From Thermoanaerobaculia bacterium (GTDB lineage Bacteria > Acidobacteriota > Thermoanaerobaculia > Multivoradales > UBA5704): a DNA stretch of 64,000 nt. A model generated the notes under the pieces. That model was not told the origin of the DNA. It searched no databases and saw nothing but the letters and a program-made list of their open reading frames with translations. Shown piece by piece: positions 10,603 to 38,630 of this stretch. Every line of letters begins with the position of its first letter. Position 1 is the stretch's first letter. The position numbers and the translations under genes are program-made. Location: NCBI GenBank assembly GCA_036376245.1, contig DASVAS010000040.1, positions 64,293 to 128,292 on the forward strand, given 5' to 3'.

Positions 10603-11964
10603 TTATAGGCGGGTGGACTCGATCTCCGCGTAGAAGCGCTCGCGCACGCCGTCCGCATTCATCCTGCACATCGGTACCATCTCGCCCTTGTAGGGGAGGC
10701 GGAAGACGCAGGCGGCCAGGCGCTCCCGGCCCAGCGGCGTGCGCACCTCCTCCGGGCTCATGAAGTGATGGCTCGTCAGGGTCAGTCCGTCGACGCGGAG
10801 GCGGCCCCGGAGGACGTCCAGGAGCAGGCGCCGCAGCGAGATCCCCGCCTCCTCACGGAAACGGGCGTCCGCCCAGCGCCGCACCCGCCCGAAGAGCCAG
10901 CGAGGATCGGCGCGCAGCATGCCGAGGAAGCGCGCCGCCTTCTCGACGGGCCGGTCGTCCCGGAAGGCCGTGCCGCCCAGGCCGCGCGCGAAGAACTCGC
11001 TCATCACGGCCACGTCCTCGGGCTCGTCGCGGATGAACTGGAACAGCCGCGGCTCCTCCCCCCGACGCTCCAGCGCCAGCACGGGCACGAAGCGCGTGCA
11101 CTCCGTGTGGCCGAAATGCATCGGACCCGTCCCCCGGAGATCCAGCCCGAACGTGGCGGTCCCCCGGTCCACCTCCCGCCACAGCTCCCCGGCCGTCACC
11201 CCTCGCTGGCTCCTGCGCGTCCGGCCCACCTGGGCCAGCGGCTGGAAGCTCGCCAGGCCGAAGGCGTCGCGGTTGCGCACCAGCCAGCGCACCACGTCCG
11301 CGATCTGGGGGAGGTTGTCCTGGGTGACCGTCAGCGTCATGGCCGCCCGCAGCGGTCTGCCGGTGCGGCGGCGGGCCTCCCGGACCATGGCCGCGAATTC
11401 GTCCCGCAGCCCCATCAGCTCCAGCTCCGACTCCGGCGCCTTGTGGCCGTCCCGCCCACGCTGGGTGATGTCCACGTGGATCGAGACCTCGGTGAGCCCG
11501 CCGTCCGTCATCAGCCGCTCCAGCAGCCCGGGCCGCCGGCGGAAGCTGTCGCCGTGGGTCATCACCATGGGGACGCAGCCGATCGAGCGGGCGTAGCGCA
11601 GGATTTCGATCAGCTCCCTCTCGGGGCGCAGCGTCACCTCGCCGTCGGTGATCTGGACGTTGCTCTTGGGGCCCAGCCAGCGGCGCATCTCGTCGAGCTG
11701 CCGCAGGACGGCCGCGGTAGGAAGGGCCGGGATACGGTTCGCCTCGCGGCCGAGGTAGCAGCCGGTGCAGGCGAAGTCGCAGCGCGGTTGGATGCCGATG
11801 GTGGCGCCGCAGCCGGTGGCCTTCTGGCCGAGGCCCTGCCCGGGAAGACGCAGAGCGGGGTCGAGCCCCGCCCAGCGTTGCGCCAGCAGGCCGCGCTTCT
11901 CGGCCGTGGCCGGATCGCGGAGGAGATCCAGGGTTCCCCGCAGCGACCAGGGCTGTCCGATCAA
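10603..11964 (-). CDS. radical SAM domain protein
   Basis: CDFACTGC (CxxxCxxC) cluster motif near N-terminus; 453 aa. Confidence 0.7.
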   Translation of the reverse strand: MIGQPWSLRGTLDLLRDPATAEKRGLLAQRWAGLDPALRLPGQGLGQKATGCGATIGIQPRCDFACTGCYLGREANRIPALPTAAVLRQLDEMRRWLGPKSNVQITDGEVTLRPERELIEILRYARSIGCVPMVMTHGDSFRRRPGLLERLMTDGGLTEVSIHVDITQRGRDGHKAPESELELMGLRDEFAAMVREARRRTGRPLRAAMTLTVTQDNLPQIADVVRWLVRNRDAFGLASFQPLAQVGRTRRSQRGVTAGELWREVDRGTATFGLDLRGTGPMHFGHTECTRFVPVLALERRGEEPRLFQFIRDEPEDVAVMSEFFARGLGGTAFRDDRPVEKAARFLGMLRADPRWLFGRVRRWADARFREEAGISLRRLLLDVLRGRLRVDGLTLTSHHFMSPEEVRTPLGRERLAACVFRLPYKGEMVPMCRMNADGVRERFYAEIESTRL

Positions 11965-12830: not shown

Positions 12831-15800
12831 CTACGGCCCCTCTCGCTTCAACGTGAGGCTCGGCAGGCCGGGGGCTTCCCAGAGGAGGGTGGCAACCCCG
12901 CCTCCGAGTTGGAAGGTCATGGTGTCCGTCATGCCCTCGATGCGGAAGCGGGTGGGTGAGGTCGGCACCAGCACCATGTTGCTCTCCTCGTCCACCAGCA
13001 CGGCCAGCAGGCGGTTGCCCGCGGCCTGGACTCTGATCTCGTACCCGCTCTCCCCATCCTTGTAGGTTCCGGTGAAGCGGGCGATCTGGTCGGCCGGCAG
13101 CTCCACGTCCGGGTCCCGCTTGAGCACGAACTCCGGCCGCTTTGTCTTCTCCACGCAGGAAGTGTCTAGCCCCTTTACGGTGCCGGCTTCGACGAACCGG
13201 ACAATCAGGCTGTCGACGCACTGGTAGGCGCTCCCGAAACTGTGGCCGCCGTCCGGCACCACGACCTGAAGGCTGTTCTTCAGCGTCCGCGCGGCCCGCT
13301 CGGCGTTGGACGGCGGAGTCACGGGGTCGCGCTCGCCCGAGAGCAGGAGCGCCGGCACATCGGAGACCGTCGGGTCCAGGAACTCGCGGCCGACCGCGGG
13401 CACCGGCCAGGCCGCGCAGGCCGCCTGCTGCTTGCGGATGCGGAAGTCCCCCAGGAAGGTGCCCTGGACGGCGGCCGGGATCTCCTCCTCGCGAATGAAC
13501 GGCAGGTCCTCCGCGCAGGTGAGGGAGAGATAGTAGCCGTCGGCCAGAGCGCCGCCGCTGCCGGCGGAAAAGCGGCGGGCGGCCTCGGCCATCGGCTTCC
13601 AGTCCCCCTGGGCCGCGAAGTGGATGCTGAGAGGAAGGAGGGAGGCTCCCCTCGGGCTGTAGAGCATGTAGCGAAAGGTCGTCGCCACCCCGTTGCGCGC
13701 CAGCCGGACGTCCACCGGCTTGCCCGTTTCGCCGTCCGTCAGGGTGACGGTCACGGGCTGCTTCTCGATCTGCCGGAGCACGGCGGCGGCTTCGTCACGG
13801 AGGTGGGGGAAGGCGGTGCGGCAGGCTGGATCCCCCTCGCACTCGGCGATCAGGCTGTCGAGCGCCCGCTGGGCGTGGCGGGCCATCGGGAACGGCCCAC
13901 GCTCGTCCGTGGGGGCCACTCCATGGAGGACCACCGTGCGCACGTTGTCAGGATATCGGCGCAGGTAGACCAGCGCCGACTTGGTGCCGCCGGACGCGCC
14001 GTAAATGTTGAGCTTGCCGTAGCCGAGGGCGGCCCGCACCTCTTCGATGTCGTCGACGCTGGCGGCGTTGGTGTACTGGCTGAGGTCGGCGGTCTTCGCC
14101 AGGCGCTCGGCGCAGGTCTTCACCTTCTCCGGCGGGTAGAATTCGTCGAGGAAGCCCTGGGCTCCCGCTCCCCCGACCATTTCCGGGCAGAAAAGGCCCC
14201 CGGAGCCGCCGGTCCCGCGGAAATCGACGAGCAGGATGTCCCGCCGTTTGCGTAGGGCTCCAAACTCGGCGGCGATCGAGGCGGCCGCCGACACCGAGGA
14301 GTTCCCCGGGCCGCCGGTGAAGTAGACGAAGGGATCGGACAGCCGGTCCGGCCCCGTGGCCGGGAGGACGACCACGCGCAGGGGGATCTTGCGGCCGGTC
14401 TTCGCCGCTCGGTTCTCCCAGACCTCGTAGGTGCCGCACCGGGCCTCCGGCGGCAGGCCGGGGATGGTGGTGCAGGGCTTCAGCGCCAGCTTCGCGGCGG
14501 GTTGCGCCTCGCGGGCGAACGCCGGCGGCTTCGTCTTCGCCAGGCAGGAGCCGTCGAGCCCCTTCGCCGTGCCGGCCTCGACGAACCGGGTCATCAGGTC
14601 CGTGAGACACCCCATGGTTTCGAGCCCGTCGAGGCTGTGGCCGGTGTGCGGGATCACCACGTGCAGGCTGTTCTTCAGCGTCCGCGCGGCCCGCTCGGCG
14701 TTGGACGGCGGAGTCACCGGGTCCAGCTCGCCCGAGATCAGGAGCGTCGGCACGTCGGAGGTCACCGGCTCCTGGAACTCGCGGCCGACCGGGGGTACGG
14801 GCCAGGCGGCGCAGGCGGCCTGTTGGGCGCGGATGCGGTAGTCCCCCAGGAACGAGCCCCGGACCACCGCCGGGACCTCCTCCTCGGGAATGAACGGCAC
14901 GTCCTCCGAGCAGGTGAGGGAGAGATAGTAGCCGCGGGCCATCGTGCTCAGGCCGGAGCCCGCGGCCTGGGCCGCCTCGGCCATCGGCATCCAATTCCCC
15001 AGCACGGCCTGATGGACGCTGAACGGGATACGGGAGGCCCCCGTGGAGCTGTAGAGCATGGCGCGCAGGGTGGTGATCAGCGCGTTGCGCGTCAGCCGCA
15101 CCTCCAGCGGCTTGCCGGTCTCGCCGTCGGTCAGCGTCACCACGGCCGGCTTCTCCGCGGCCCGCTGGAGCATGGTGGCCAGCTCTTCGCGGACCTTGGG
15201 GAACGCCGCGCGGCAGGCCTCGTCCCGGTCGCACTCGGCGAGCCGCCCGTCCAGGGCCCGCTGGACGTGGCGGGCCATGAAGAACGGTCCGCGCTCGTCG
15301 GTCGGGACCAGGCCCGAGAGGATCGCGGCGCGCACCGACTCCGGATGCCGGCGCAGGTAGATCAGGCCCGTCCGGCTGCCGCCGGAGCCGCCCATGAGGT
15401 TGACCTTTTCGTAGCCGAGGGCGGCCCGCACCTCGTCGAGATCGTCGACGGTCGTGTCGTTGGTGTACTGCGAGAGGTCAGCGGTCTTCGCCAGGCGTTC
15501 GGCGCAGGCCTTGGCCTGATCCGGCGCCAGGTAGTGATCCAGGTAGCCCTGCAATCCCGCGCTGGTCTCCATCTCGGGGCAGAAGAGGCCGCCGGAGCCG
15601 CCGGTGCCCCGGAAGTCCACTAGCAGGAGGTCCCGCCGCTGGTTGATCTCCTTGAGCTCTGCGGCCAGCCAGGAAGCGGCCTCCACGTTGGAGTCCCCTG
15701 GGCCGCCGTTCAGGAAGACCAGGGGATCAGGCTGGCGGTCAGGACCCTGGGCCGGGAGCACAACCACGCGGAGAGGGATCTTGCGGCCGGTCTTCGCGGC

Positions 15801-15989
15801 CCGGTTCTCCCACACCTCGTAGGTGCCGCACCGGGCCTCTGGCGGCAGGTCGGGGATGCCGGCGCAGGGCTTCAGCTCCAGCTCCGTGGCCGGCGCGGCG
15901 GCGAGGGCCAGCCCGGGGACGCACAGCCCGGTCAGGATCGCGAGCATCGGGACGCGTCTCATTGGATTCCTCCTTGCAGGGATCTTCAA
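12831..15989 (-). CDS. secreted tandem-duplicated (two-module) S33/TAP-like alpha/beta hydrolase with shared C-terminal domain; start may be MRRVPML at 15962
   Basis: 1052 aa; two ~480-aa modules each beginning LxLKPC..IPxLPPEARCGTYEVWENRAAKTGRKIPLRVVVLP and each with a GxSxG nucleophile (GGSGGS / GASGGT). Confidence 0.75.
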   Translation of the reverse strand: MKIPARRNPMRRVPMLAILTGLCVPGLALAAAPATELELKPCAGIPDLPPEARCGTYEVWENRAAKTGRKIPLRVVVLPAQGPDRQPDPLVFLNGGPGDSNVEAASWLAAELKEINQRRDLLLVDFRGTGGSGGLFCPEMETSAGLQGYLDHYLAPDQAKACAERLAKTADLSQYTNDTTVDDLDEVRAALGYEKVNLMGGSGGSRTGLIYLRRHPESVRAAILSGLVPTDERGPFFMARHVQRALDGRLAECDRDEACRAAFPKVREELATMLQRAAEKPAVVTLTDGETGKPLEVRLTRNALITTLRAMLYSSTGASRIPFSVHQAVLGNWMPMAEAAQAAGSGLSTMARGYYLSLTCSEDVPFIPEEEVPAVVRGSFLGDYRIRAQQAACAAWPVPPVGREFQEPVTSDVPTLLISGELDPVTPPSNAERAARTLKNSLHVVIPHTGHSLDGLETMGCLTDLMTRFVEAGTAKGLDGSCLAKTKPPAFAREAQPAAKLALKPCTTIPGLPPEARCGTYEVWENRAAKTGRKIPLRVVVLPATGPDRLSDPFVYFTGGPGNSSVSAAASIAAEFGALRKRRDILLVDFRGTGGSGGLFCPEMVGGAGAQGFLDEFYPPEKVKTCAERLAKTADLSQYTNAASVDDIEEVRAALGYGKLNIYGASGGTKSALVYLRRYPDNVRTVVLHGVAPTDERGPFPMARHAQRALDSLIAECEGDPACRTAFPHLRDEAAAVLRQIEKQPVTVTLTDGETGKPVDVRLARNGVATTFRYMLYSPRGASLLPLSIHFAAQGDWKPMAEAARRFSAGSGGALADGYYLSLTCAEDLPFIREEEIPAAVQGTFLGDFRIRKQQAACAAWPVPAVGREFLDPTVSDVPALLLSGERDPVTPPSNAERAARTLKNSLQVVVPDGGHSFGSAYQCVDSLIVRFVEAGTVKGLDTSCVEKTKRPEFVLKRDPDVELPADQIARFTGTYKDGESGYEIRVQAAGNRLLAVLVDEESNMVLVPTSPTRFRIEGMTDTMTFQLGGGVATLLWEAPGLPSLTLKREGP

Positions 15990-16033
15990 TCTTAGACTTG
16001 TTTCATCCCAATGGCGTCCCTATTTCCACTTTC

Positions 16034-17770
16034 TCAGCTTCCCTCCCGCTTCAGGGTCTGCGTGCCGCCCGGCATCTCCAGGGTCATGGCGACGGCGCGG
16101 CCGTCCTGGAGGTCGAAGCTGAGCTTCAGCCATGGCTCGCCGCTGCGCATGCGGAAGCGCGTCGGCGAGGTGGCGGCCAGGAGGGCCGGGCCGAAGGGGG
16201 AGTCCACCCGCAGGTATCCGCCGACGACGGCGGTCGTGAACTTGCCCCCGTTCGGGCCTGCCCAGACGCCCACGAGCCGCTCGAGCTCCTCGGGCTTCAG
16301 CTTCACCTCGGGGTCAAGGCTCAGGAGGAAGTCGGGCCGCCGCATGCGGGCCACACAGGAGGTGTCCAGCGACTCGGCGGCGCCCGCCTGGATGAACGCC
16401 GTGATCATCCGCTCGACGCACTCCCCGCCTTGCATGCCGCCCAGGCCGTGGCCACCGTCCTCGACCACCACGTGCCGGCCCCGCTTCAGCGTGCGGGCCA
16501 CCCGATCTCCCTGGGAGGGCGGGGTGACGGGATCGGCGCTGCCCGAGAGCAGCAGGGTGGGGATGCCGGAGGTCACCGGCCTGCGGAACTCCGGGCCGAG
16601 CTTCGGGGCCGGCCAGCCCTTGCAGGCTTCCAACTGCTTGCGCACGCGCAGGTCGCCGAGGAAGGTGCCGGCCACGGCGGCGGGGATCTCCTCCTCGCGG
16701 GTGAAAGCGAGGTCCTCGGAGCAGGAGACGGAAAGGAAATAGCCGCCGATCGAGCCCTGGGCCTCGCTGATGACCTTGGCGAATTCGGCGAGAGGCTGCC
16801 AGTCGCCGTTCGCCGCGTTGTGGAGGTAGAGCGGGACGAGGGAGATCCAGGGGTTGTAGTAGAGCATCCGCCGCAGCACCTGGCCAAAGCCGCCCTTTGA
16901 CAGGGTGAATTCGATCGGCTGGCCGGTCTGGGCGCTCGGCACCTGGAGCTTCACCGGCTCTTTCTGGATCCGGCTGATCACGGCGGCGACCTCTTCCCGG
17001 AGCTTCGGGAAGGCCTTGTGGCACGCCGGGTCCCCTTCGCACTCGACGATCAGGTTCTCCAAAGCCCGCTGGGAGTGGCGGGCGGTGAATAGGGGGACGG
17101 ACTCGTCCATGGGGACCACGCCGCTGATCGTGGCCGTGCGGACGCTGCCGGGGTGGCGGCGCATGTAGACCTGGACCGTGCGCGTGCCGTAGGAGGTCCC
17201 CATGATGTTGACCTTCCCATAGCCGAGCGCGGTGCGGATCTCCTCGGCGTCGTCGGTCACGTAGTCAGAGGAGTACTGGGTGAGGTCGGCGGTCTTCTGC
17301 AGCCGGTCGCGGCAGGCGCGGGCCTTGTCGGCGGGGATGAATTCGTCCAGAAACCCCTGGATGCTGCCGTCGCCCCGCAGCTCGGGGCAGTCCAAAGGCG
17401 CCGACAGGCCGGTCCCCCGGGAATCGATGAGGAGGACGTCGCGGTCCTTCCGCAGCTCCGGCATCTCCATCGCGAACCCCAGTCCCTCCTCGATGGACGG
17501 CCCGCCCGGTCCGCCGGCGAAGTAGAGGAACGGATCGGGCAGCCGCTGGGGTCCGGTCGCCGGCAGGACCACGACCTGAAGCGGGATCTTGCGTCCGGAC
17601 TTCGCGGCGCGGTTCTCAAAGACCTCATAGACGCCGCACCGGGCGTCCTTGGGGAGCCAGGGAGCCGAGCAGGCGCCTAACTCGAATTTCTTGACAGGCT
17701 CGGCGCTGGCGGAGAGTCCTACGGCAGGGAAACAGGCGAGAGCGATGAGGAAAGTTGATGTGGCTCGCAT
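16034..17770 (-). CDS. secreted S33/TAP-like alpha/beta hydrolase (single-module paralog of 12831..15989)
   Basis: 578 aa; same N-terminal pattern (ARCGVYEVFENRAAKSGRKIPLQVVVLPATGP), GTSYGT nucleophile motif, homologous C-terminal ~90-aa domain ending TLKREG. Confidence 0.75.
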   Translation of the reverse strand: MRATSTFLIALACFPAVGLSASAEPVKKFELGACSAPWLPKDARCGVYEVFENRAAKSGRKIPLQVVVLPATGPQRLPDPFLYFAGGPGGPSIEEGLGFAMEMPELRKDRDVLLIDSRGTGLSAPLDCPELRGDGSIQGFLDEFIPADKARACRDRLQKTADLTQYSSDYVTDDAEEIRTALGYGKVNIMGTSYGTRTVQVYMRRHPGSVRTATISGVVPMDESVPLFTARHSQRALENLIVECEGDPACHKAFPKLREEVAAVISRIQKEPVKLQVPSAQTGQPIEFTLSKGGFGQVLRRMLYYNPWISLVPLYLHNAANGDWQPLAEFAKVISEAQGSIGGYFLSVSCSEDLAFTREEEIPAAVAGTFLGDLRVRKQLEACKGWPAPKLGPEFRRPVTSGIPTLLLSGSADPVTPPSQGDRVARTLKRGRHVVVEDGGHGLGGMQGGECVERMITAFIQAGAAESLDTSCVARMRRPDFLLSLDPEVKLKPEELERLVGVWAGPNGGKFTTAVVGGYLRVDSPFGPALLAATSPTRFRMRSGEPWLKLSFDLQDGRAVAMTLEMPGGTQTLKREGS

Positions 17771-18137
17771 AGGAAGGACTACGAACGCGGTAGTCGAAAG
17801 GTTTCGGGCCGCGTTCCCCCGATTCCGCCTCTCATTCCCTCGCTTCCGAGAGACGTGAAAGCCTGGGAATGCTCCATTCGCTCCTTTTCAAGTCTCTTTC
17901 CCCGGAGGGAATGGAAGCCGGAAGAGCCTTCGTCGTCTTCGAAGGGTCTTTCGGCTTCCAGTCCCCGTCTTTCGCCTGCCATTTCCTCCTCTTCAGGTCT
18001 TGTTCCCCGGAGGAAATGCGACCCGGAAGGTTCTCCACGCCCCATTCCTCCTGGGGAACGCGACCCGAAAGGCGGGGAACGCCTCGCGATGAGGAGGGAA
18101 CATGACGGGAGATCCCCTTCAGGCAGCCTGAGCGGGA

Positions 18138-18200
18138 GGGAATGAGACCCGAAATCCGGGGAATGAGACCTGAAGTCCGGGGAACACGATCCGAAAAACG
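18138..18200. repeat. three tandem 21-nt direct repeats (gggaatgagacccgaaatccg / gggaatgagacctgaagtccg / gggaacacgatccgaaaaacg), with further degenerate copies in 17900-18100
   Basis: read directly from sequence; located in the 556-bp lower-GC noncoding gap 17771-18326 upstream of the ATPase gene. Confidence 0.6.
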
Positions 18201-18326
18201 ATGGACGAGGGCCGAAGCCCTTCCGCCATGCCCCGTTTGCCGCCTTGAGAGGGACGAAACTCGAAGAGAGGCAGGAGTAAGGGATGGGGTGCTATCCTTT
18301 GATCCTGTCGACAGGAGCGGAAACGA

Positions 18327-19598
18327 TTGTACGTTCAAGAGATCGCCATTCATAACCTCCGGGTCTTCGAGGCGGCTTCTCTGAAGCTCCAGTACCCGGG
18401 TCGCTCTGACGCCGACGCTCTCCACCATCCCAACATCAACCTGCTGCTCGGCAACAACGGCGCTGGGAAGACCACCGTCCTGAAAGCGCTGGCCCTCTCC
18501 ACGCTCGCGCCGGTCATCGACAAGTCGGGCTTCCTCCCCTATGAGCTGGTGCGGCACGGGCGCGAGCGGTCGACGATCACGGCCAAGGTGGTCCTCCATC
18601 CGCAAGACCTGGGCAAGGGGTTCTCCACACACCCTCACGAGGAGTCCTTGACGACGGAGATCGTCCGGCAGGGGGATCTGGAGATCCTGGCCTCCGGAAT
18701 CGGGACCGATCCGGGACCTTGGTCGGGGATGTTCGACAACAAGTCCCCCTCGTTCCTCGTCGTCGGCTACGGAGCGACCCGGCGGGTACAGGACGCCGGG
18801 AGCTTCAATCCGGAGGAGCAGGGGAAGCGCCGGTTCCTGCGTTACCAGCGCGTCGCGGGCCTGTTCGAGAGCCACATCGCCCTGACGCCCCTGCCCGCCT
18901 GGCTGCCCGGCTATCAGAAGGAGAATCCAGGCCGCTACAAGCAGGTCTCGAACCTGATCAACAAGCTTCTTCCCGAAGGCGCCAGGTTCTCCGGCCGGCG
19001 CGAGAGAGCGGACTCCGGGGACTACATGTTCCAGCTCCACGATGCGGAGGTCCCTTTCGGCGCCCTGTCGGACGGCTACCGCGCCTACATCGGATGGATC
19101 ACGGACCTGCTGTATCACGTCTGCATGGGGTGTCCCAACAATACGAAGCTGGTGGACAGCCGCGGCCTGGTCCTGATCGACGAGATCGACCTCAACCTCC
19201 ATCCGGAATGGCAGCGCACCGTCTGCGCCACCGTCTCCGCCGCCCTGCCCAACCTTCAGTTCGTGCTCTCCACGCACAGCCCCATCGTCGCGGGATCGCT
19301 GCAGAAGGAGAACATCTTCGTGATGGAGGCTGATGCTTCGGGCGCCTCGCGGGTCCGCCAGTACGAGGAGCGGATCTACGGCCTCGACGCGGACCAGATC
19401 CTGCTGAGCCCCTACTTCAACCTGGAGACGACGCGAGCGCCCGGCTTCGTGGATGAGTTGCAGCAACTGTCGAAGCAGGCCGCGCCGGGCAAGCCGGAGA
19501 TCTCGCTGGCGATCATGCGGAAACTGGTCGGTCAGGCCGCGCCGGAAGAACGGCCTCAGAGAGACGGCGGGAAAAAGAAGCGCAAGCTCTCCGCATGA
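18327..19598 (+). CDS. ABC-type (AAA_21-like) ATPase, Septu PtuA-like anti-phage system component
   Basis: Walker A GNNGAGKTT, ABC signature-like LSDGYR, Walker B LVLIDEIDLNLH, H-loop STHSP; ATGA overlap with the downstream HNH gene; lower GC than flanks. Confidence 0.7.
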   Translation: MYVQEIAIHNLRVFEAASLKLQYPGRSDADALHHPNINLLLGNNGAGKTTVLKALALSTLAPVIDKSGFLPYELVRHGRERSTITAKVVLHPQDLGKGFSTHPHEESLTTEIVRQGDLEILASGIGTDPGPWSGMFDNKSPSFLVVGYGATRRVQDAGSFNPEEQGKRRFLRYQRVAGLFESHIALTPLPAWLPGYQKENPGRYKQVSNLINKLLPEGARFSGRRERADSGDYMFQLHDAEVPFGALSDGYRAYIGWITDLLYHVCMGCPNNTKLVDSRGLVLIDEIDLNLHPEWQRTVCATVSAALPNLQFVLSTHSPIVAGSLQKENIFVMEADASGASRVRQYEERIYGLDADQILLSPYFNLETTRAPGFVDELQQLSKQAAPGKPEISLAIMRKLVGQAAPEERPQRDGGKKKRKLSA

Positions 19599-20486
19599 TC
19601 CGGCATCCCGTCACCCGGACCCGGCTGATCCAATTGATTCGCGCCGAGTCGCAAGACTGGCTCGAAGAAGCCGCGGCCAAGACCGAGACCTTCCGCAAGC
19701 TGCAGACCTATCAGGAAGAAGAGGGCTCCTGGAGCGCCGTCAAGAAGGCCTACATGGCCATCCAGTCCGGCAAGTGCGCCTATTGTGAGCGGAAGTTCGG
19801 CGAAGACGACGAGAGCAGGATCGAGCACGACGTCGAGCACTTCCGGCCCAAGAGCAAGGTGCGGGCCTGGCCCACTTCCAGGATCAAGAAAGATCTCAAG
19901 ATCGAGTACTCCTTCACGACGGGAACGGCCTCGAAGACCGGGTACTACCTCCTGGCGTACAACATCTTCAACTATGTCGTCACGTGCAAGAAGTGCAACA
20001 CGATCTACAAGTCGGACTACTTTCCCATCGCGGGTGAAACCCGGATCTTCGATCAGGACGATCCCGCGAAGCTCGCCGCCGAGAAGGCCTTCCTGATCTA
20101 TCCATTGGGTGTTCTGGACGACGACCCGGAAGACCTGATTACTTTCGAAGGCCTCATCGCCGTACCGAAGCACAAGTACGGCCGCAAACACGACCGTGCC
20201 CGGGTGACCATCGACTTCTTCAAGCTGGCGGTCGGCCGTGACGAGCTACTCCTGGAACGCGCGATCGTGCTGCGGCAGATCTATCTGGCGCTCGACTATC
20301 TCAAAGTCGCGACGAGCGAGAAGAAGCGGGCCGACGCTCAGAGAACCCTTGACATCGCGTTATCCGCCAGATCCCCCGCACACCAACTGCGCCAAGGCCT
20401 TTCACAAGGTCTGCGTCAACGCTCCGGAGACCGCCGAGCGGTACTACGAGTTGATCTCCGAGTACCTGAAGTCCAAAGGTTACTGA
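19595..20486 (+). CDS. HNH endonuclease, Septu PtuB/TIGR02646-like; appears frameshifted near a C5 run (~20376-20381); the 341-aa ORF tail to 20620 is junk, the true C-terminus is in the other frame ending 20486
   Basis: CAYCERKF...IEHDVEHFRPKS...CKKCNTIYK HNH/zinc-finger motifs; second frame encodes a protein-like tail ...NCAKAFHKVCVNAPETAERYYELISEYLKSKGY. Confidence 0.6.
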
Positions 20487-22321
20487 CCAGCCCTTTCCAG
20501 CGCCTCCGCCAGCGCCTCCGCCAGCTCCCCCGCCTGAACGTGCCACAGATCCGCGTACGTCCCGCCCCGCGCGATCAGATCGTCGTGATGCCCTTCCTCG
20601 GCGACCTGACCGTCCCTTAAAACGAGAATGCGGTCGGCGTTGCGGATCGTCGAGAGGCGATGGGCGATGATCAGCGCCGTGCGGCCGGCGGTCAGCGTCC
20701 GCAGGTTCTGCTGAATGGCCCGCTCGGTCTCCGTGTCCACGGAGCTGGTGGCCTCGTCGAGGATCAGGATGGGCGCGTCCTTGACGATCGCGCGGGCGAT
20801 CGAGAGGCGCTGGCGCTGGCCGCCGGAAAGCTTGACGCCCCGCTCCCCCACCAGGGTGTCGTAGCCCTGCGGCAGCGAGGCCACGAAGTCGTGGAGCTGG
20901 GCGAGCCGGGCCGCCCGCTCGACCTCCTCCAGGGGCACGTCGCTGCTGTAGGCGATGTTCTCCCGGATCGTGCCGTGGAAGAGGTAGACGTCCTGGCTCA
21001 CCAGGGCGATGTTGCGCCGCAGGTCGGCCAGGGCGAGGTTGCGCACGTCGTGGCCGTCCAGGCGCACGGCGCCGCCGCTGACGTCGTAGAAGCGGAGGAG
21101 GAGCTTGATGACGGTGGACTTGCCGGCGCCGGTCGGCCCCGCGATCCCCAGCGTCTCGCCCGGCGCCACCCGGAAGCTCACCCCGCGCAGCACGGGCTCG
21201 TCGGCCCGGCCGCGGGCGTAGCGGAACTCCACCCGGTCGAACACCACCTCGCCCTTCGCCCGCGCCAGCGGCTCCGGCCGCTCGGGCTCCAGGATGGCCG
21301 GCGCGGTGTCCAGCAGGCCGAAGGCGCGCCGGGCGCTGGCCTTGGCCCGCTCGTAGTCGTCCACCGTGGCGCCGAGGCGGGTCAGCGGCCAGAGGAGGCG
21401 CTCGGTCATCATGGCGAAGAGCACCAGCTCGCCCACGGTGATGTTGCCGCGGCCGTTGAGGATCCAGTAGCTCCCCAGGAGCAGCACGCCGGCGAAGCCC
21501 ACCACGATGGCCATGCGGATCAGCGGCACGTAGACCGCCGACAGCCGGATGGCCTCGACGTTGGCCCGCCGGTACTCGTCCGAGGCCTGGCGCACCCGCT
21601 CGGTCTCGAAGGCCTCGGCGGTGAAGCTCTTGATGACGTGGATGCCGCCGATGTTGTTCTCGAACCGGCTGGCGAGCCCGCCCACCGCCTCGCGGACCCG
21701 CTTGTAGCGCGGCTCGACCCGGCGCTGGTAGAGCAGGCTCCCCCAGAGGATCACCGGGATCGGCGCCACCGCCACCAGCGAGAGCTGCCAGGAGATGGGG
21801 AACATCACCGCGAAGGAGAAGAGGAAGAGCACGGCAAGCTGCACCAGCTCGTTGAAGCCGGTGTTGAGGAACCGCTCGAGCTGGTTGACGTCGTCGTTGA
21901 GCATGGCCAGGATCTCGCCCGTCCGGTGCTCCTCGAAGAAGGCCACCTCCCGCGACTGGATGCGGTTGTAGACGTCCATCCGCAGGTCGTGCTGGACCCG
22001 CTGGGCGAGGTTCATGAACCCCGACTGGTACATCCACTGGAAGAAGCTCTCGAAGAAGAAGATGACCACCGAGAGCCCGGCGAGGACCACCGCCATGCTC
22101 CAGGGATCGCGGGTGCCGGCCAGGGAGGCGATCCAGGCCGGCGGCTTGCCGCGCAGCGAGTCGATGACCCAGCCCACCAGCAGGGGCGGCATGAGGTCCA
22201 GGATCTTGTTCGAGACGCTGGCGGCGGTGGCCAGGGCCAGGCGGTCCCGGTAGGGCCGGAGATACCGGAACAGGCGCGGCATCGGCCGCGCGGCTTCCCG
22301 CAGGAGATCGGAACGGGTCAT
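20480..22321 (-). CDS. ABC transporter ATP-binding/permease protein (MsbA-like exporter); first 83 codons of the ORF are spurious
   Basis: six-TM region followed by Walker A GPTGAGKST, signature LSGGQRQRLSIARA, Walker B ILILDEATS. Confidence 0.85.
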   Translation of the reverse strand: MTRSDLLREAARPMPRLFRYLRPYRDRLALATAASVSNKILDLMPPLLVGWVIDSLRGKPPAWIASLAGTRDPWSMAVVLAGLSVVIFFFESFFQWMYQSGFMNLAQRVQHDLRMDVYNRIQSREVAFFEEHRTGEILAMLNDDVNQLERFLNTGFNELVQLAVLFLFSFAVMFPISWQLSLVAVAPIPVILWGSLLYQRRVEPRYKRVREAVGGLASRFENNIGGIHVIKSFTAEAFETERVRQASDEYRRANVEAIRLSAVYVPLIRMAIVVGFAGVLLLGSYWILNGRGNITVGELVLFAMMTERLLWPLTRLGATVDDYERAKASARRAFGLLDTAPAILEPERPEPLARAKGEVVFDRVEFRYARGRADEPVLRGVSFRVAPGETLGIAGPTGAGKSTVIKLLLRFYDVSGGAVRLDGHDVRNLALADLRRNIALVSQDVYLFHGTIRENIAYSSDVPLEEVERAARLAQLHDFVASLPQGYDTLVGERGVKLSGGQRQRLSIARAIVKDAPILILDEATSSVDTETERAIQQNLRTLTAGRTALIIAHRLSTIRNADRILVLRDGQVAEEGHHDDLIARGGTYADLWHVQAGELAEALAEALERAGQ

Positions 22322-22866
22322 GCCGAGGGACCGCGGCCGAACTTCTCCGCGTTGAACGCCCGGGTCCCGCCCCGCGCCACCGACAGGGTCTTCCAGCGGT
22401 CCGACGACAGGTGCTTGGCGAGGAAGACGATCTGGCCGACGTGGTAGCCGTAGTGCGTGAGCTGGCGGTTGATCGCCTTGACCACGCTGTGCGGCTCGGC
22501 ACGGATGAGGACGGTCAGCGACAGATCCTCCTCCCGCAGGGCAGCCAGGGTCTGGAACAGGCAGCGCCACCCCTCTTCCCAGCGGGCCAGGAGGTCCTGC
22601 CGGGTCGTCCCCTCCAGGACCATGAACTCGGAGTCGCGGTCACGGTCCGGCTTCTCGCCGTCGGAGGCCAGGAAGTCGGTCCAGCGCGACCGGAGGTTGC
22701 CGGCCATGTGCTGGATCAGGACGGCCAGGCTGTTGGACTCTGGATCGAGGGCGGCGGTGAGGTCCTCGTCCCGCACCTGGGCCAGGGCCCGGTCGGCGAG
22801 ATCCTTCAGCTTGCGGAACTGGTCGACGACATCCTCGAGATAGAGGGACGCGGGGGATCGGGTCAC
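22318..22866 (-). CDS. DinB/DUF1572-like four-helix-bundle protein
   Basis: 182 aa; ATGA overlap with ABC transporter start; pattern consistent with the DinB_2 family. Confidence 0.5.
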   Translation of the reverse strand: MTRSPASLYLEDVVDQFRKLKDLADRALAQVRDEDLTAALDPESNSLAVLIQHMAGNLRSRWTDFLASDGEKPDRDRDSEFMVLEGTTRQDLLARWEEGWRCLFQTLAALREEDLSLTVLIRAEPHSVVKAINRQLTHYGYHVGQIVFLAKHLSSDRWKTLSVARGGTRAFNAEKFGRGPSA

Positions 22867-37966: not shown

Positions 37967-38533
37967 TTATTCAAAGACCTCTGTCAGAGGGATCTCCAGG
38001 CCGGACAGGAGAGGCGTCGTCAGGATATCTCCGGCCGTGGCGGACAGCTCGGCGACGAGATCAAGCCGATCCATCTTTCGCCGAAAGACCCGGACGCTCC
38101 TCTGGGCGGAGTTGAATATCCAGTACTCCCGCACCCCGGCGCGGTCATAGAGATCGAGCTTGACGTCTTCGTCCAGGTGGCGGGTGCTCTCGGAGAGCAC
38201 TTCAATAGCGAGATCCGGGGCGCCCTCGATGCGCTTGCCGCTGGCGGTAAGGGCACTCTCCTTCTCCCTGGAAATGAAGAAGACGTCCGGCTGAACGATG
38301 TCGTACTTGGAGAGCAGGACATCGGTCGGAGCGACCAGCACCCGGCCCAACCTGTTCCGCTTCGCGAACGGCCGCAGCCACGTCACCAGCTCGGTGACGA
38401 GGTCTTGATGCGGGAGGAAGGGCGCCGGCGACACGTAGTGCTCTCCATCGATGATCTCGTGGCGCTGACCGTCGTCCGGGATGAGGACGTAATCGTCGTA
38501 GGTCAGCTTGCGGATGCGGTCGTGGAGAGCCAT
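37967..38533 (-). CDS. Uma2 family (DUF820) PD-(D/E)xK endonuclease
   Basis: ALHDRIRKLTYDDYVLIPDDGQRHEIIDGE...PDLAIEVLSEST pattern typical of Uma2/DUF820. Confidence 0.75.
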   Translation of the reverse strand: MALHDRIRKLTYDDYVLIPDDGQRHEIIDGEHYVSPAPFLPHQDLVTELVTWLRPFAKRNRLGRVLVAPTDVLLSKYDIVQPDVFFISREKESALTASGKRIEGAPDLAIEVLSESTRHLDEDVKLDLYDRAGVREYWIFNSAQRSVRVFRRKMDRLDLVAELSATAGDILTTPLLSGLEIPLTEVFE

Positions 38534-38630
38534 GGCGTCAGTCCTCATGCATCATGGTACCACTCCGGACGTTCCGTCGTCCGGCATCATTCCACGCAAC
38601 CGTAGTCTGTTCCTGGGACAATATCACGGC

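What the first reader, a model, noticed from the sequence alone, without database searches (positions are those of the whole stretch)
18327..20486. Septu-like two-gene defense module (ABC-type ATPase + HNH nuclease) in a lower-GC island
A 423-aa ATPase carries a Walker A motif (GNNGAGKTT), an ABC-signature-like LSDGYR, Walker B LVLIDEID and an H-loop STHSP, which matches the AAA_21/ABC ATPase architecture. It is translationally coupled (ATGA) to a ~297-aa HNH protein whose motifs (CAYC...HDVEHFRP...CKKC) fit the TIGR02646 retron/Septu-type HNH. This is the PtuA/PtuB architecture of the Septu anti-phage system. The pair is inserted between conserved hydrolase genes and an ABC exporter and has visibly lower GC than its flanks, consistent with horizontal acquisition. 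The HNH protein is ~70 aa longer at the N-terminus than typical PtuB and the ATPase is shorter than typical PtuA, so this may be a divergent variant.
Basis: partly seen in the sequence, partly recalled or inferred. Interest (0 to 1): 0.75.

Follow-up and report, generated by a model that had tools for sequence, protein, structure and literature searches.

The report
Ordinary Septu defence pair, ptuB frameshifted
This is a routine two-gene Septu anti-phage system (PtuA ATPase plus PtuB HNH nuclease) in an uncultured Thermoanaerobaculia bacterium; standard defence-system models recognise it end to end, and its only unusual feature is a one-base frameshift that cuts off the end of the nuclease gene.

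Summary
ORF 18327-19598 (+, 423 aa) matches a PADLOC PtuA model over its full length (E=1e-154). The overlapping ORF (ATGA at 19595-19598) matches a PtuB model (E=2e-85). Both structure models (the window's own PtuA; for PtuB a 65%-identical homologue, P0003) find only PtuA or PtuB chains at the top of the PDB. No reverse transcriptase or retron RNA was found among the called genes within about 20 kb, so this is a stand-alone (type I) Septu.

- The "297-aa" PtuB crosses a frameshift. An extra C in the run at 20373-20377 puts the last 35 conserved residues in another frame. These form the last two helices of the C-terminal domain, which in solved complexes docks onto PtuA. As deposited, ptuB is probably a recent pseudogene or carries an assembly error.
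- The pair is not a recent insertion. It lies in a variable slot next to DUF1572 and a PAS-GGDEF-EAL gene. The same slot holds ptuAB in five other relatives, is empty in about ten, and holds a dCTP-deaminase defence gene in one.
- It is not a divergent new variant. The subfamily has over 1000 database relatives and its own PADLOC models.

GC is only modestly lower than in the neighbours. Interest is low.

The parts
18314..18317 (+). GGAG Shine-Dalgarno-like motif 9 nt upstream of the ptuA TTG start
   Evidence: Read directly from the sequence. The start position is the same in homologues and in the NCBI protein HEX6901487.1.
18327..19598 (+). ptuA: a 423-aa ABC-type ATPase with Walker A at residues 42-50, signature LSDGYR at 247-252, Walker B D285/E286 and H-loop H317, followed by short C-terminal helices and a basic tail
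   Evidence: PADLOC PDLC00301 E=1.2e-154 over the full length. Pfam AAA_21 and AAA_15. The motifs are invariant in alignment A5. AlphaFold model pLDDT 79.7; best PDB fold match is 8eea_D, E. coli Septu PtuA, E=1.1e-21. 100% identical to NCBI HEX6901487.1.
19595..20377 (+). ptuB 5' part in the frame of its ATG (residues 1-261). It covers the N-terminal helices, the HNH/zinc-finger nuclease domain (C61, C64, H82, N126, C131, C134, N135) and the first two helices of the C-terminal domain. Its start overlaps the ptuA stop (ATGA).
   Evidence: PADLOC PDLC00318 E=2.3e-85, protein residues 1-261 against profile positions 1-258 of 299. Alignments A1, A3 and A4. tblastn segment 19595-20377.
20373..20377 (+). 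C5 homopolymer run that contains the frameshift: one extra C compared with the reading frame kept in all homologues
   Evidence: Relatives read AGC CCG CAC ACx (S-P-H-T). The window reads TCC CCC G CAC ACC. The as-is translation departs from all homologues exactly after 'SARSP'.
20379..20486 (+). ptuB 3' part in the +1 frame: the last 35 codons (HTNCAKAFHKVCVNAPETAERYYELISEYLKSKGY) plus the TGA stop, equivalent to the last two helices of the PtuB C-terminal domain
   Evidence: Translation. It aligns with the conserved SPHTxCARAF...YL.KKGY C-terminus of homologues. tblastn gives a second segment in a different frame. The homologue model places helices 258-270 and 272-288 here.
20378..20620 (+). 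Out-of-frame tail of the ptuB ORF as deposited (80 codons plus stop). It resembles no homologue and runs antisense into the 3' end of the ABC exporter gene.
17771..18326 (.). Divergent intergenic spacer between the hydrolase gene and ptuA. Positions 17790-18215 hold an array of degenerate 21-nt repeats in both orientations. No sigma-70-like promoter was found by the scan.
   Evidence: The repeat array is also present, in shorter form, in relative L007, which lacks ptuAB, so it is context and not part of the Septu cassette.
20480..22330 (-). Convergent ABC exporter gene (ABC_membrane plus ABC_tran). Its stop lies 7 nt inside the repaired ptuB 3' end. This is flanking context.
   Evidence: Pfam. 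Orthologues at 84-88% identity sit next to DUF1572 in many relatives.
22318..22866 (-). DUF1572/DinB_2 gene, the conserved anchor of the variable slot. This is flanking context.
   Evidence: Pfam DUF1572 E=2e-67. It was used to fetch 38 orthologous loci.

Best explanation
The locus is a stand-alone (type I) Septu anti-phage module in the chromosome of an uncultured Thermoanaerobaculia (Acidobacteriota) bacterium.

ptuA encodes an ABC-type ATPase and ptuB an HNH/zinc-finger nuclease. They form one operon with overlapping stop and start codons.

By analogy with characterised Septu and retron I-A PtuAB systems (inferred, not shown here):
- PtuA dimers oligomerise and hold PtuB through a helical bundle made of the PtuA C-terminal helices and the PtuB C-terminal domain.
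- ATP-bound PtuA keeps the nuclease quiet.
- Phage infection releases this control, and PtuB then cuts nucleic acid (nicking of DNA in vitro, cleavage of the tRNA-Tyr variable loop in vivo in E. coli). This stops phage replication at the cost of host growth.

In this genome the pair sits in a variable slot next to a DUF1572 gene. The slot carries different cargo, or none, in related species, and PtuA has diverged about as much as the flanking proteins. It is therefore an old resident that is often lost, not a fresh insertion.

The deposited sequence has one extra C in a C-run. This removes the last two helices of the PtuB docking domain. If the extra base is real, this copy is most likely a recently inactivated pseudogene. 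If it is an assembly error, the system is intact.
For: Shown here:
- PADLOC gives a full-length PtuA match (E=1.2e-154) and a PtuB match (E=2.3e-85).
- Pfam finds AAA_21 and AAA_15 in PtuA.
- The ATPase motifs and the HNH/CxxC residues are invariant across homologues.
- The top 50 PDB fold matches of the PtuA model are all PtuA chains, led by E. coli Septu 8eea.
- The model of a 65%-identical PtuB homologue (P0003; pLDDT 94.8) has PtuB chains as its only six confident PDB matches.
- The ATGA overlap is present, and the same two-gene unit with overlapping ends recurs in relatives.
- No reverse transcriptase domain was found in the 22 window ORFs scanned with Pfam, which cover about 5.3-44.7 kb, and there is no Rfam hit.
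- The slot is variable across 38 orthologous loci, with ptuAB in five other species (L005, L022=L001, L027=L004 (also L003), L033=L006, L036) and a dCTP-deaminase defence gene plus an IS transposase in L031.
- PtuA identity to relatives (75-77%) is close to that of the flanking DUF1572 (78-81%) and PAS-GGDEF-EAL (75-78%) proteins.
- The frameshift is supported.

From the literature:
- The PtuB C-terminal domain is sandwiched by PtuA C-terminal helices, and deleting it reduces defence (PMC12819146; PMC12673091).
- E. coli Septu is a 6:2 complex inhibited by ATP (PMC12640716).
- Septu Ec-B88 needs the Walker A/B and HNH residues and cleaves tRNA-Tyr (PMC13096335).
Against: - No experiment exists for this subfamily. 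Identity to characterised proteins is only 15-21%, so trigger, oligomer and substrate are extrapolations.
- The NCBIfam equivalogs for retron Ec78 PtuA and PtuB, and TIGR02646, score below their curated cutoffs.
- ptuB is not an intact ORF in the deposited sequence.
- Whether the frameshift is biological could not be settled. Two metagenome scans found no second copy of the allele.
- Vertical descent is supported only by similar divergence levels. The correlation of 0.69 rests on 10 non-independent pairs, and PtuB correlates poorly with the flanks (0.20).
Confidence: 0.9

Rival explanations
1. The frameshift is an assembly or consensus error in the metagenome-assembled genome, and the organism really carries an intact 296-aa PtuB and a working Septu system.
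For: The 35 codons after the shift are open and end at a stop codon in the same position as in homologues. They keep the conserved SPHTNCAxAF motif. Their identity to relatives (46-51%) is lower than for the rest of the protein, but one search did not measure whether this tail is equally variable among the relatives themselves; by eye in alignment A1 it looks more variable there too. The change is a single base in a homopolymer run. MAG consensus sequences can mix strains (general knowledge).
Against: Short-read assemblies rarely make indel errors in a 5-base run (general knowledge). The source annotation gives a protein for ptuA, but no protein with the ptuB ORF sequence is on record, which fits a pseudogene call on the deposited sequence. 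Lack of decay fits a recent real mutation equally well.
Confidence: 0.35
2. The pair is the effector half of a type I-A retron (Retron-Septu, PADLOC Septu type II) whose reverse transcriptase and ncRNA lie nearby.
For: The NCBIfam models with the best E-values are the retron Ec78 PtuA and PtuB models. The 555-nt structured spacer upstream of ptuA could in principle hide an ncRNA.
Against: Both NCBIfam scores are far below cutoff (130.6 against 500, and 43.7 against 150). PtuA lacks the roughly 50-aa N-terminal domain of retron PtuA: its Walker A motif is at residue 42 against about 93. No reverse transcriptase domain was found in any called gene from about 5 to 45 kb, and there is no Rfam hit. 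Relatives have only ptuA and ptuB between the flanking genes. The upstream repeat array also occurs in L007, which has no ptuAB.
Confidence: 0.02
3. The ATPase-nuclease pair belongs to a different system: a housekeeping RecF/SbcC/Rad50-type repair ATPase, or another ATPase-nuclease defence system such as PARIS (AriA/AriB), Gabija or an OLD-family nuclease.
For: Weak matches to SMC_N, RecF, Rad50, AriA and OLD ATPases through the shared ABC ATPase core.
Against: These matches cover only the P-loop or Walker B region, at E values of 1e-7 to 1e-3, against 1e-154 over the full length for PtuA. The partner is a PtuB-type HNH protein and not a Toprim, DUF4435 or helicase protein. The pair is present in only a minority of orthologous loci, which is not the pattern of a housekeeping gene.
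Confidence: 0.02
4. The pair is a recent horizontal acquisition, a lower-GC island inserted into this genome.
For: ptuB has the lowest GC of 39 window genes and ptuA is below average. The slot is variable and elsewhere carries a transposase and other defence cargo. The closest relative, L007, lacks ptuAB.
Against: GC3 is still 0.83-0.86, so codon usage is largely host-like. ptuAB lies at the same DUF1572-proximal position in five other species, and PtuA has diverged about as much as the flanks. The L007 'empty' state comes from a deletion of about 4.2 kb that also removed all but the first 16 codons of the ABC exporter gene, so it is not a pre-insertion site. No integrase, tRNA gene or direct repeats bound the pair.
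Confidence: 0.12

Closest known systems
Stand-alone Septu (type I) PtuA/PtuB, e.g. E. coli Septu (PDB 8EE4/8EE7/8EEA) and Septu Ec-B88
   Same: The gene order and two-gene architecture are the same: an ABC ATPase followed by an HNH nuclease, without a reverse transcriptase. All ATPase motifs and the HNH/zinc-finger residues are present. The predicted folds match: 8eea_D is the best PDB match of the PtuA model, and 8eea_G is among the six confident matches of the PtuB-family model. PtuA has C-terminal helices and PtuB a helical C-terminal domain, as in the solved docking interface.
   Different: Sequence identity is only 15-21%. PtuA is shorter (423 against 465 aa) and PtuB longer (296 after repair, against about 215-266 aa), with extra residues at the N-terminus, inside the HNH domain and at the C-terminus. 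The ABC signature reads LSDGYR; E. coli Septu has Leu and Ec78 has Gln at the fifth position. Here ptuB carries a frameshift. Trigger and substrate are untested.
PADLOC Septu subfamily models PDLC00301 (PtuA) and PDLC00318 (PtuB)
   Same: The PtuA match is end to end (profile 1-417 of 429) and the PtuB match reaches the frameshift (profile 1-258 of 299). The repaired C-terminus aligns with all homologues. This is the subfamily the window pair belongs to.
   Different: Nothing of substance apart from the frameshift. The family has more than 1000 relatives, and all the source-named ones come from Acidobacteriota metagenome bins.
Retron type I-A (Ec78/Eco7, Ec83/Eco4) PtuAB effectors
   Same: The ATPase and HNH nuclease are homologous, the fold matches have probability 1.0, and the PtuA-CTD/PtuB-CTD docking principle is the same.
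   Different: There is no reverse transcriptase, ncRNA or msDNA. PtuA lacks the retron-specific N-terminal domain. The NCBIfam equivalog scores are far below cutoff.

Membership tests
Septu type I (PtuA + PtuB) | PtuA is an ABC-type (AAA_15/AAA_21) ATPase with Walker A, ABC signature, Walker B and H-loop | tested here: met
   Pfam AAA_21 3.4e-17 and AAA_15 2.1e-13. PADLOC PtuA 1.2e-154 over the full length. Motifs invariant in alignment A5. Top 50 PDB fold matches are all PtuA chains.
Septu type I (PtuA + PtuB) | PtuB is an HNH (beta-beta-alpha-metal) nuclease with a CxxC...CxxC zinc finger and a catalytic His | tested here: met
   PADLOC PtuB 2.3e-85. C61, C64, H82, N126, C131, C134 and N135 are invariant in 30-50 homologues. 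The profile hits solved PtuB chains at 3.6e-5. The only confident PDB fold matches of the homologue (P0003) model are PtuB chains. No Pfam HNH model passes threshold.
Septu type I (PtuA + PtuB) | ptuA lies immediately upstream of ptuB in one operon | tested here: met
   ATGA overlap at 19595-19598. Relatives have the same order with 1-4 nt overlaps.
Septu type I (PtuA + PtuB) | No associated reverse transcriptase or ncRNA (this separates it from retron I-A / Septu type II) | tested here: met
   No RVT domain in the 22 ORFs scanned from about 5.3 to 44.7 kb. No Rfam family at gathering score in the window, and none at E<=1 near the locus apart from chance-level hits. Relatives have only two genes in the slot. 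ORFs in the outer parts of the window were not scanned.
Septu type I (PtuA + PtuB) | Both genes are intact, including the PtuB C-terminal domain that docks onto PtuA | tested here: not met
   A one-base insertion in the C-run at 20373-20377 puts the last 35 residues (two helices) out of frame. It may be an assembly error, and this could not be resolved.
Septu type I (PtuA + PtuB) | Confers phage resistance that depends on the ATPase and nuclease active sites | not testable with these tools
   Known for E. coli Septu (PMC13096335). No data exist for this subfamily.
Retron Ec78-type PtuA/PtuB (NCBIfam NF041760 / NF041761 equivalogs) | Score above the curated equivalog cutoff | tested here: not met
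   PtuA 130.6 bits against cutoff 500. PtuB 43.7 bits against cutoff 150.
TIGR02646 (retron-system putative HNH endonuclease subfamily) | Score above the curated cutoff of 52.15 bits | tested here: not met
   31.7 bits, E=1.4e-7, matching only residues 48-92. The protein is related but falls below the family threshold.

The most novel reading that the evidence does not exclude
The extra C in the C-run of ptuB is real and reversible. Slipped-strand changes in the homopolymer would switch a potentially self-toxic abortive-infection nuclease off and on within the population, which would be phase variation of a Septu system. Alternatively, the truncated PtuB, freed from PtuA docking, might have acquired a different role.
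Probability: 0.04. Interest if true: 0.5.

Novelty: new member of a known kind. Interest (0 to 1): 0.15.

Why it matters
It matters little beyond annotation. The source record names ptuA only as 'AAA family ATPase' and gives no protein for ptuB, so the locus can now be labelled as a type I Septu system whose ptuB is frameshifted.

Two modest points are worth keeping:
- The slot between DUF1572 and the TopoIII-RecQ fusion gene in Thermoanaerobaculia is a small variable hotspot. Across 38 orthologous loci plus two fetched separately it holds Septu in some, a dCTP-deaminase defence gene in one, small MazE-like ORFs in two, or nothing. This shows gain, loss and decay of defence genes in a little-studied soil phylum.
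- This Septu subfamily, whose named members are all acidobacterial, shares under 21% identity with every characterised PtuAB. Its trigger and substrate remain open.

Tried and rejected
- Retron link: I looked for a reverse transcriptase or msr/msd RNA. Pfam on 22 window ORFs, Rfam at E<=1 around the locus and at gathering score over the whole window all gave nothing.
- Upstream 21-nt repeat array as part of the system: rejected. A shorter version lies at the orthologous site in L007, which has no ptuAB, and it is absent from the upstream regions of the other ptuAB loci.
- Promoter and terminator scan of 17600-20800: no promoter-like site, and terminator-like sites no more frequent than chance.
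- Direct PDB sequence search with PtuB: no hit. A family profile was needed.
- Looking up the source contig through PtuA: not on record.
- Two metagenome scans for the C4 or C5 allele around 20373-20377: no match, so the frameshift could not be checked against independent assemblies.
- Search for the repeat consensus in the fetched loci with a strict pattern: no match, because the pattern was too strict. blastn then found the L007 copy.
- tRNA-linked integration: the only tRNA call (tRNA-SeC, 11298-11387) lies inside a radical-SAM ORF and has no Rfam support, so it is probably a false positive.
Full report
**1. What is in the sequence**

Two co-oriented ORFs lie at the reported place.
- ORF1 is 18327-19598 (+), 423 aa, with a TTG start preceded by GGAG at 18314-18317.
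- ORF2 starts at ATG 19595-19597, which overlaps the ORF1 TGA stop at 19596-19598.
- Both show the GC3 > GC1 > GC2 pattern of real genes in this roughly 68.5% GC genome.

- PtuA has GNNGAGKTT, LSDGYR, LVLIDEID and STHSP.
- PtuB has CAYC, HDVEHFRP and CKKC.
- All of them fall on invariant or nearly invariant columns of alignments of 21 PtuA and 30-50 PtuB homologues.

**2. The coordinate problem: a frameshift in ptuB**

- The ORF that begins at 19595 runs to 20620 (341 aa).
- The stop at 20484-20486 belongs to another frame.
- The PADLOC PtuB match stops at residue 261, profile position 258 of 299.
- tblastn with a repaired protein gives two segments in different frames, 19595-20377 and 20334-20483.
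- In a 13-sequence alignment the as-is translation leaves all homologues exactly after 'SARSP'. A translation with one C removed continues through the conserved SPHTxCARAF...YL.KKGY C-terminus.
- Relatives read AGC CCG CAC ACx (S-P-H-T). The window reads TCC CCC G CAC ACC, so it has one extra C in the run 20373-20377.

The downstream 35 codons are still open and end at the stop position used by homologues.
- Their identity to relatives is 46-51%, against 63-68% for the rest of the protein.
- One search did not measure whether this tail is equally variable among the relatives themselves. By eye in alignment A1 it looks more variable there too.
- The change is therefore either very recent or an artefact.

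What the databases say about the source:
- PtuA is 100% identical to NCBI HEX6901487.1, 'AAA family ATPase', from a Thermoanaerobaculia MAG contig of 220,686 bp.
- Neither the 341-aa ORF nor any close PtuB is on record from that source.
- This fits a pseudogene flag in the deposited annotation, which is an inference.
- Two metagenome scans found no independent copy of the allele.

**3. What the genes are**

Profile searches:
- PADLOC gives PtuA model PDLC00301 at E=1.2e-154 over profile positions 1-417 of 429. It gives PtuB model PDLC00318 at E=2.3e-85. The next 20 or more hits for each protein are almost all other PtuA or PtuB subfamily models.
- Pfam sees AAA_21 and AAA_15 in PtuA and nothing significant in PtuB.
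- NCBIfam ranks the retron Ec78 PtuA and PtuB models first, followed by TIGR02646, but all score well below their curated cutoffs.

Sequence search of the PDB:
- PtuA finds E. coli Septu PtuA (8ee4) and retron I-A PtuA at about 1e-21, through the C-terminal half of the ATPase.
- PtuB needs a family profile to reach solved PtuB chains (3.6e-5).

Predicted structures:
- The PtuA model has pLDDT 79.7. Its top 50 PDB fold matches are all PtuA chains, and the best is 8eea_D at 1.1e-21.
- The PtuB model was built from P0003, a 65%-identical homologue, and has pLDDT 94.8. Its six confident PDB matches are all PtuB chains, and the next hits are Cas9 HNH domains at negligible probability.

No reverse transcriptase domain occurs in the 22 ORFs scanned between about 5.3 and 44.7 kb. 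No Rfam family is found. Relatives have only these two genes in the slot. The locus is therefore a stand-alone, type I Septu.

**4. Likely mechanism (inferred from characterised systems)**

- In E. coli Septu and the retron I-A effectors, PtuA dimers oligomerise. A pair of PtuA C-terminal helical domains sandwiches the three-helix C-terminal domain of PtuB. Deleting the PtuB C-terminal domain reduces defence (PMC12819146; PMC12673091).
- E. coli Septu is a 6:2 complex whose nuclease is inhibited by ATP and nicks DNA (PMC12640716).
- Septu Ec-B88 needs the Walker A/B and HNH residues. [quoted passage not shown]
- The window proteins keep every catalytic residue and have the matching C-terminal helices: PtuA helices 375-383 and 390-400, and the PtuB-family helices 211-233, 237-251, 258-270 and 272-288.
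- The frameshift removes the last two PtuB helices. If the frameshift is real, docking to PtuA, and hence regulated nuclease activity, is probably lost.

**5. Genomic context and history**

Anchoring on the adjacent DUF1572 gene recovered 38 orthologous Thermoanaerobaculia loci.
- The conserved order is Peptidase_M14 ... PAS-GGDEF-EAL, DUF1572, a variable slot, then a TopoIII-RecQ fusion gene.
- About ten loci have an empty slot.
- In many, the slot holds an ABC exporter, sometimes with an amidohydrolase.
- It holds ptuAB in five other species: L005, L022=L001, L027=L004 (also recovered as L003), L033=L006 and L036.
- In L031 it holds a dCTP-deaminase defence gene (PADLOC 5e-143) plus an ISAzo13 transposase.
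- In L009 and L083 it holds small MazE-like ORFs.

The window is the only locus with both the ABC exporter and ptuAB. Its far flank is a set of alpha/beta-hydrolase genes, not TopoIII-RecQ.

PtuA identity to the ptuAB-bearing relatives is 75-77%. That is similar to DUF1572 (78-81%) and PAS-GGDEF-EAL (75-78%).

The closest relative, L007, has flanks 91-97% identical and lacks ptuAB.
- It retains the first 16 codons of the ABC exporter gene fused to the repeat spacer.
- It therefore suffered a deletion of about 4.2 kb, equivalent to window positions ~18102-22272, and is not a pre-insertion site.

GC is modestly lower than in the neighbours.
- ptuB at 0.593 is the lowest of 39 genes, and ptuA is 0.645.
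- GC3 is 0.83/0.86 against 0.916 +/- 0.036.
- Relatives show a similar but variable dip.
- Codon usage is thus largely host-like.

Together these results indicate an old accessory resident of a variable slot that is often lost. They do not support a recent insertion between a conserved hydrolase/ABC-exporter pair.

**6. Size and 'divergence' claims**

- PtuA (423 aa) is shorter than E. coli Septu PtuA (465 aa) and retron PtuA (550 aa). It lacks the retron-specific N-terminal domain.
- Repaired PtuB (296 aa) is longer than the solved PtuB constructs (215-266 aa). The extra residues are spread over the N-terminus (about 18), an insertion in the HNH domain (about 40) and the C-terminus (about 19).
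- These lengths are normal for the subfamily: homologues are 287-300 aa and 410-460 aa, and the PADLOC profiles are 299 and 429 positions long.
- More than 1000 relatives exist. Those that carry a source name all come from Acidobacteriota bins.

**7. Verdict**

- The Septu call is right and the system is of a known, catalogued kind.
- Novelty: a new, uncharacterised member of a known kind.
- Interest is low (0.15).
- The most novel reading left open is a reversible homopolymer switch of a toxic nuclease. It is unlikely for a 5-base run (probability about 0.04).

Noticed in passing
window 17790-18215: The spacer between the hydrolase gene and ptuA is built from at least 15 degenerate copies of a 21-nt unit (about GGGGAAYGMGACCYGAAAKCC). 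Copies on the left are inverted and copies on the right are direct, and all spacings are multiples of 21. It folds into a long imperfect hairpin (-209 kcal/mol, z=-6.4). A shorter version lies at the orthologous site of relative L007 (about 10660-10850), which has no ptuAB. It was found nowhere else in 86 fetched loci. Its nature is unknown.
   Followed up: partly
L007 10546-10700, against window 18102-22272: The closest relative retains only the first 16 codons of the ABC exporter gene (MTRSGLLREAARPMPR), joined to the repeat spacer. This is a deletion of about 4.2 kb covering the region that holds ptuAB and the exporter in the window.
   Followed up: yes
L031 12578-15788: In the same DUF1572 / TopoIII-RecQ slot, another Thermoanaerobaculia-clade genome carries a low-GC 562-aa dCTP-deaminase-type defence gene (PADLOC dCTPase, 5e-143) next to an ISAzo13-family transposase. 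The slot therefore acts as a small defence and accessory-gene hotspot. L009 and L083 carry small MazE-like ORFs there.
   Followed up: partly
window 12831-17770 (-): There are three paralogous S33/TAP-like alpha/beta-hydrolase modules in a row. A 1052-aa ORF is made of two tandem modules, and it is followed by a 578-aa single-module gene that is 49-51% identical to each module.
   Followed up: partly
L001 1-4384, L006 138-4400 and others: Relatives encode a single protein of about 1420-1490 aa that fuses Toprim/topoisomerase III to a RecQ helicase (DEAD, Helicase_C, RecQ_Zn_bind, HRDC). It lies divergently next to ptuA. In L005 it is split into three ORFs. It is absent from the 64-kb window.
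   Followed up: no
window 11298-11387 (+): ARAGORN calls a tRNA-SeC here, but it lies antisense inside a radical-SAM ORF (10603-11964, -) and no Rfam tRNA model reaches its gathering score. It is probably a false positive.
   Followed up: partly
window 37967-38548 (-): A 193-aa Uma2-family 'putative restriction endonuclease' gene has the second-lowest GC in the window (0.62). It may be another accessory gene.
   Followed up: no
window 20480-20486: The repaired ptuB stop (20484-20486) and the stop of the convergent ABC exporter gene (20480-82, minus strand) overlap by 7 nt, so there is no room for a terminator between the convergent genes. The frameshifted ORF reads 141 nt antisense into the exporter gene.
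   Followed up: no
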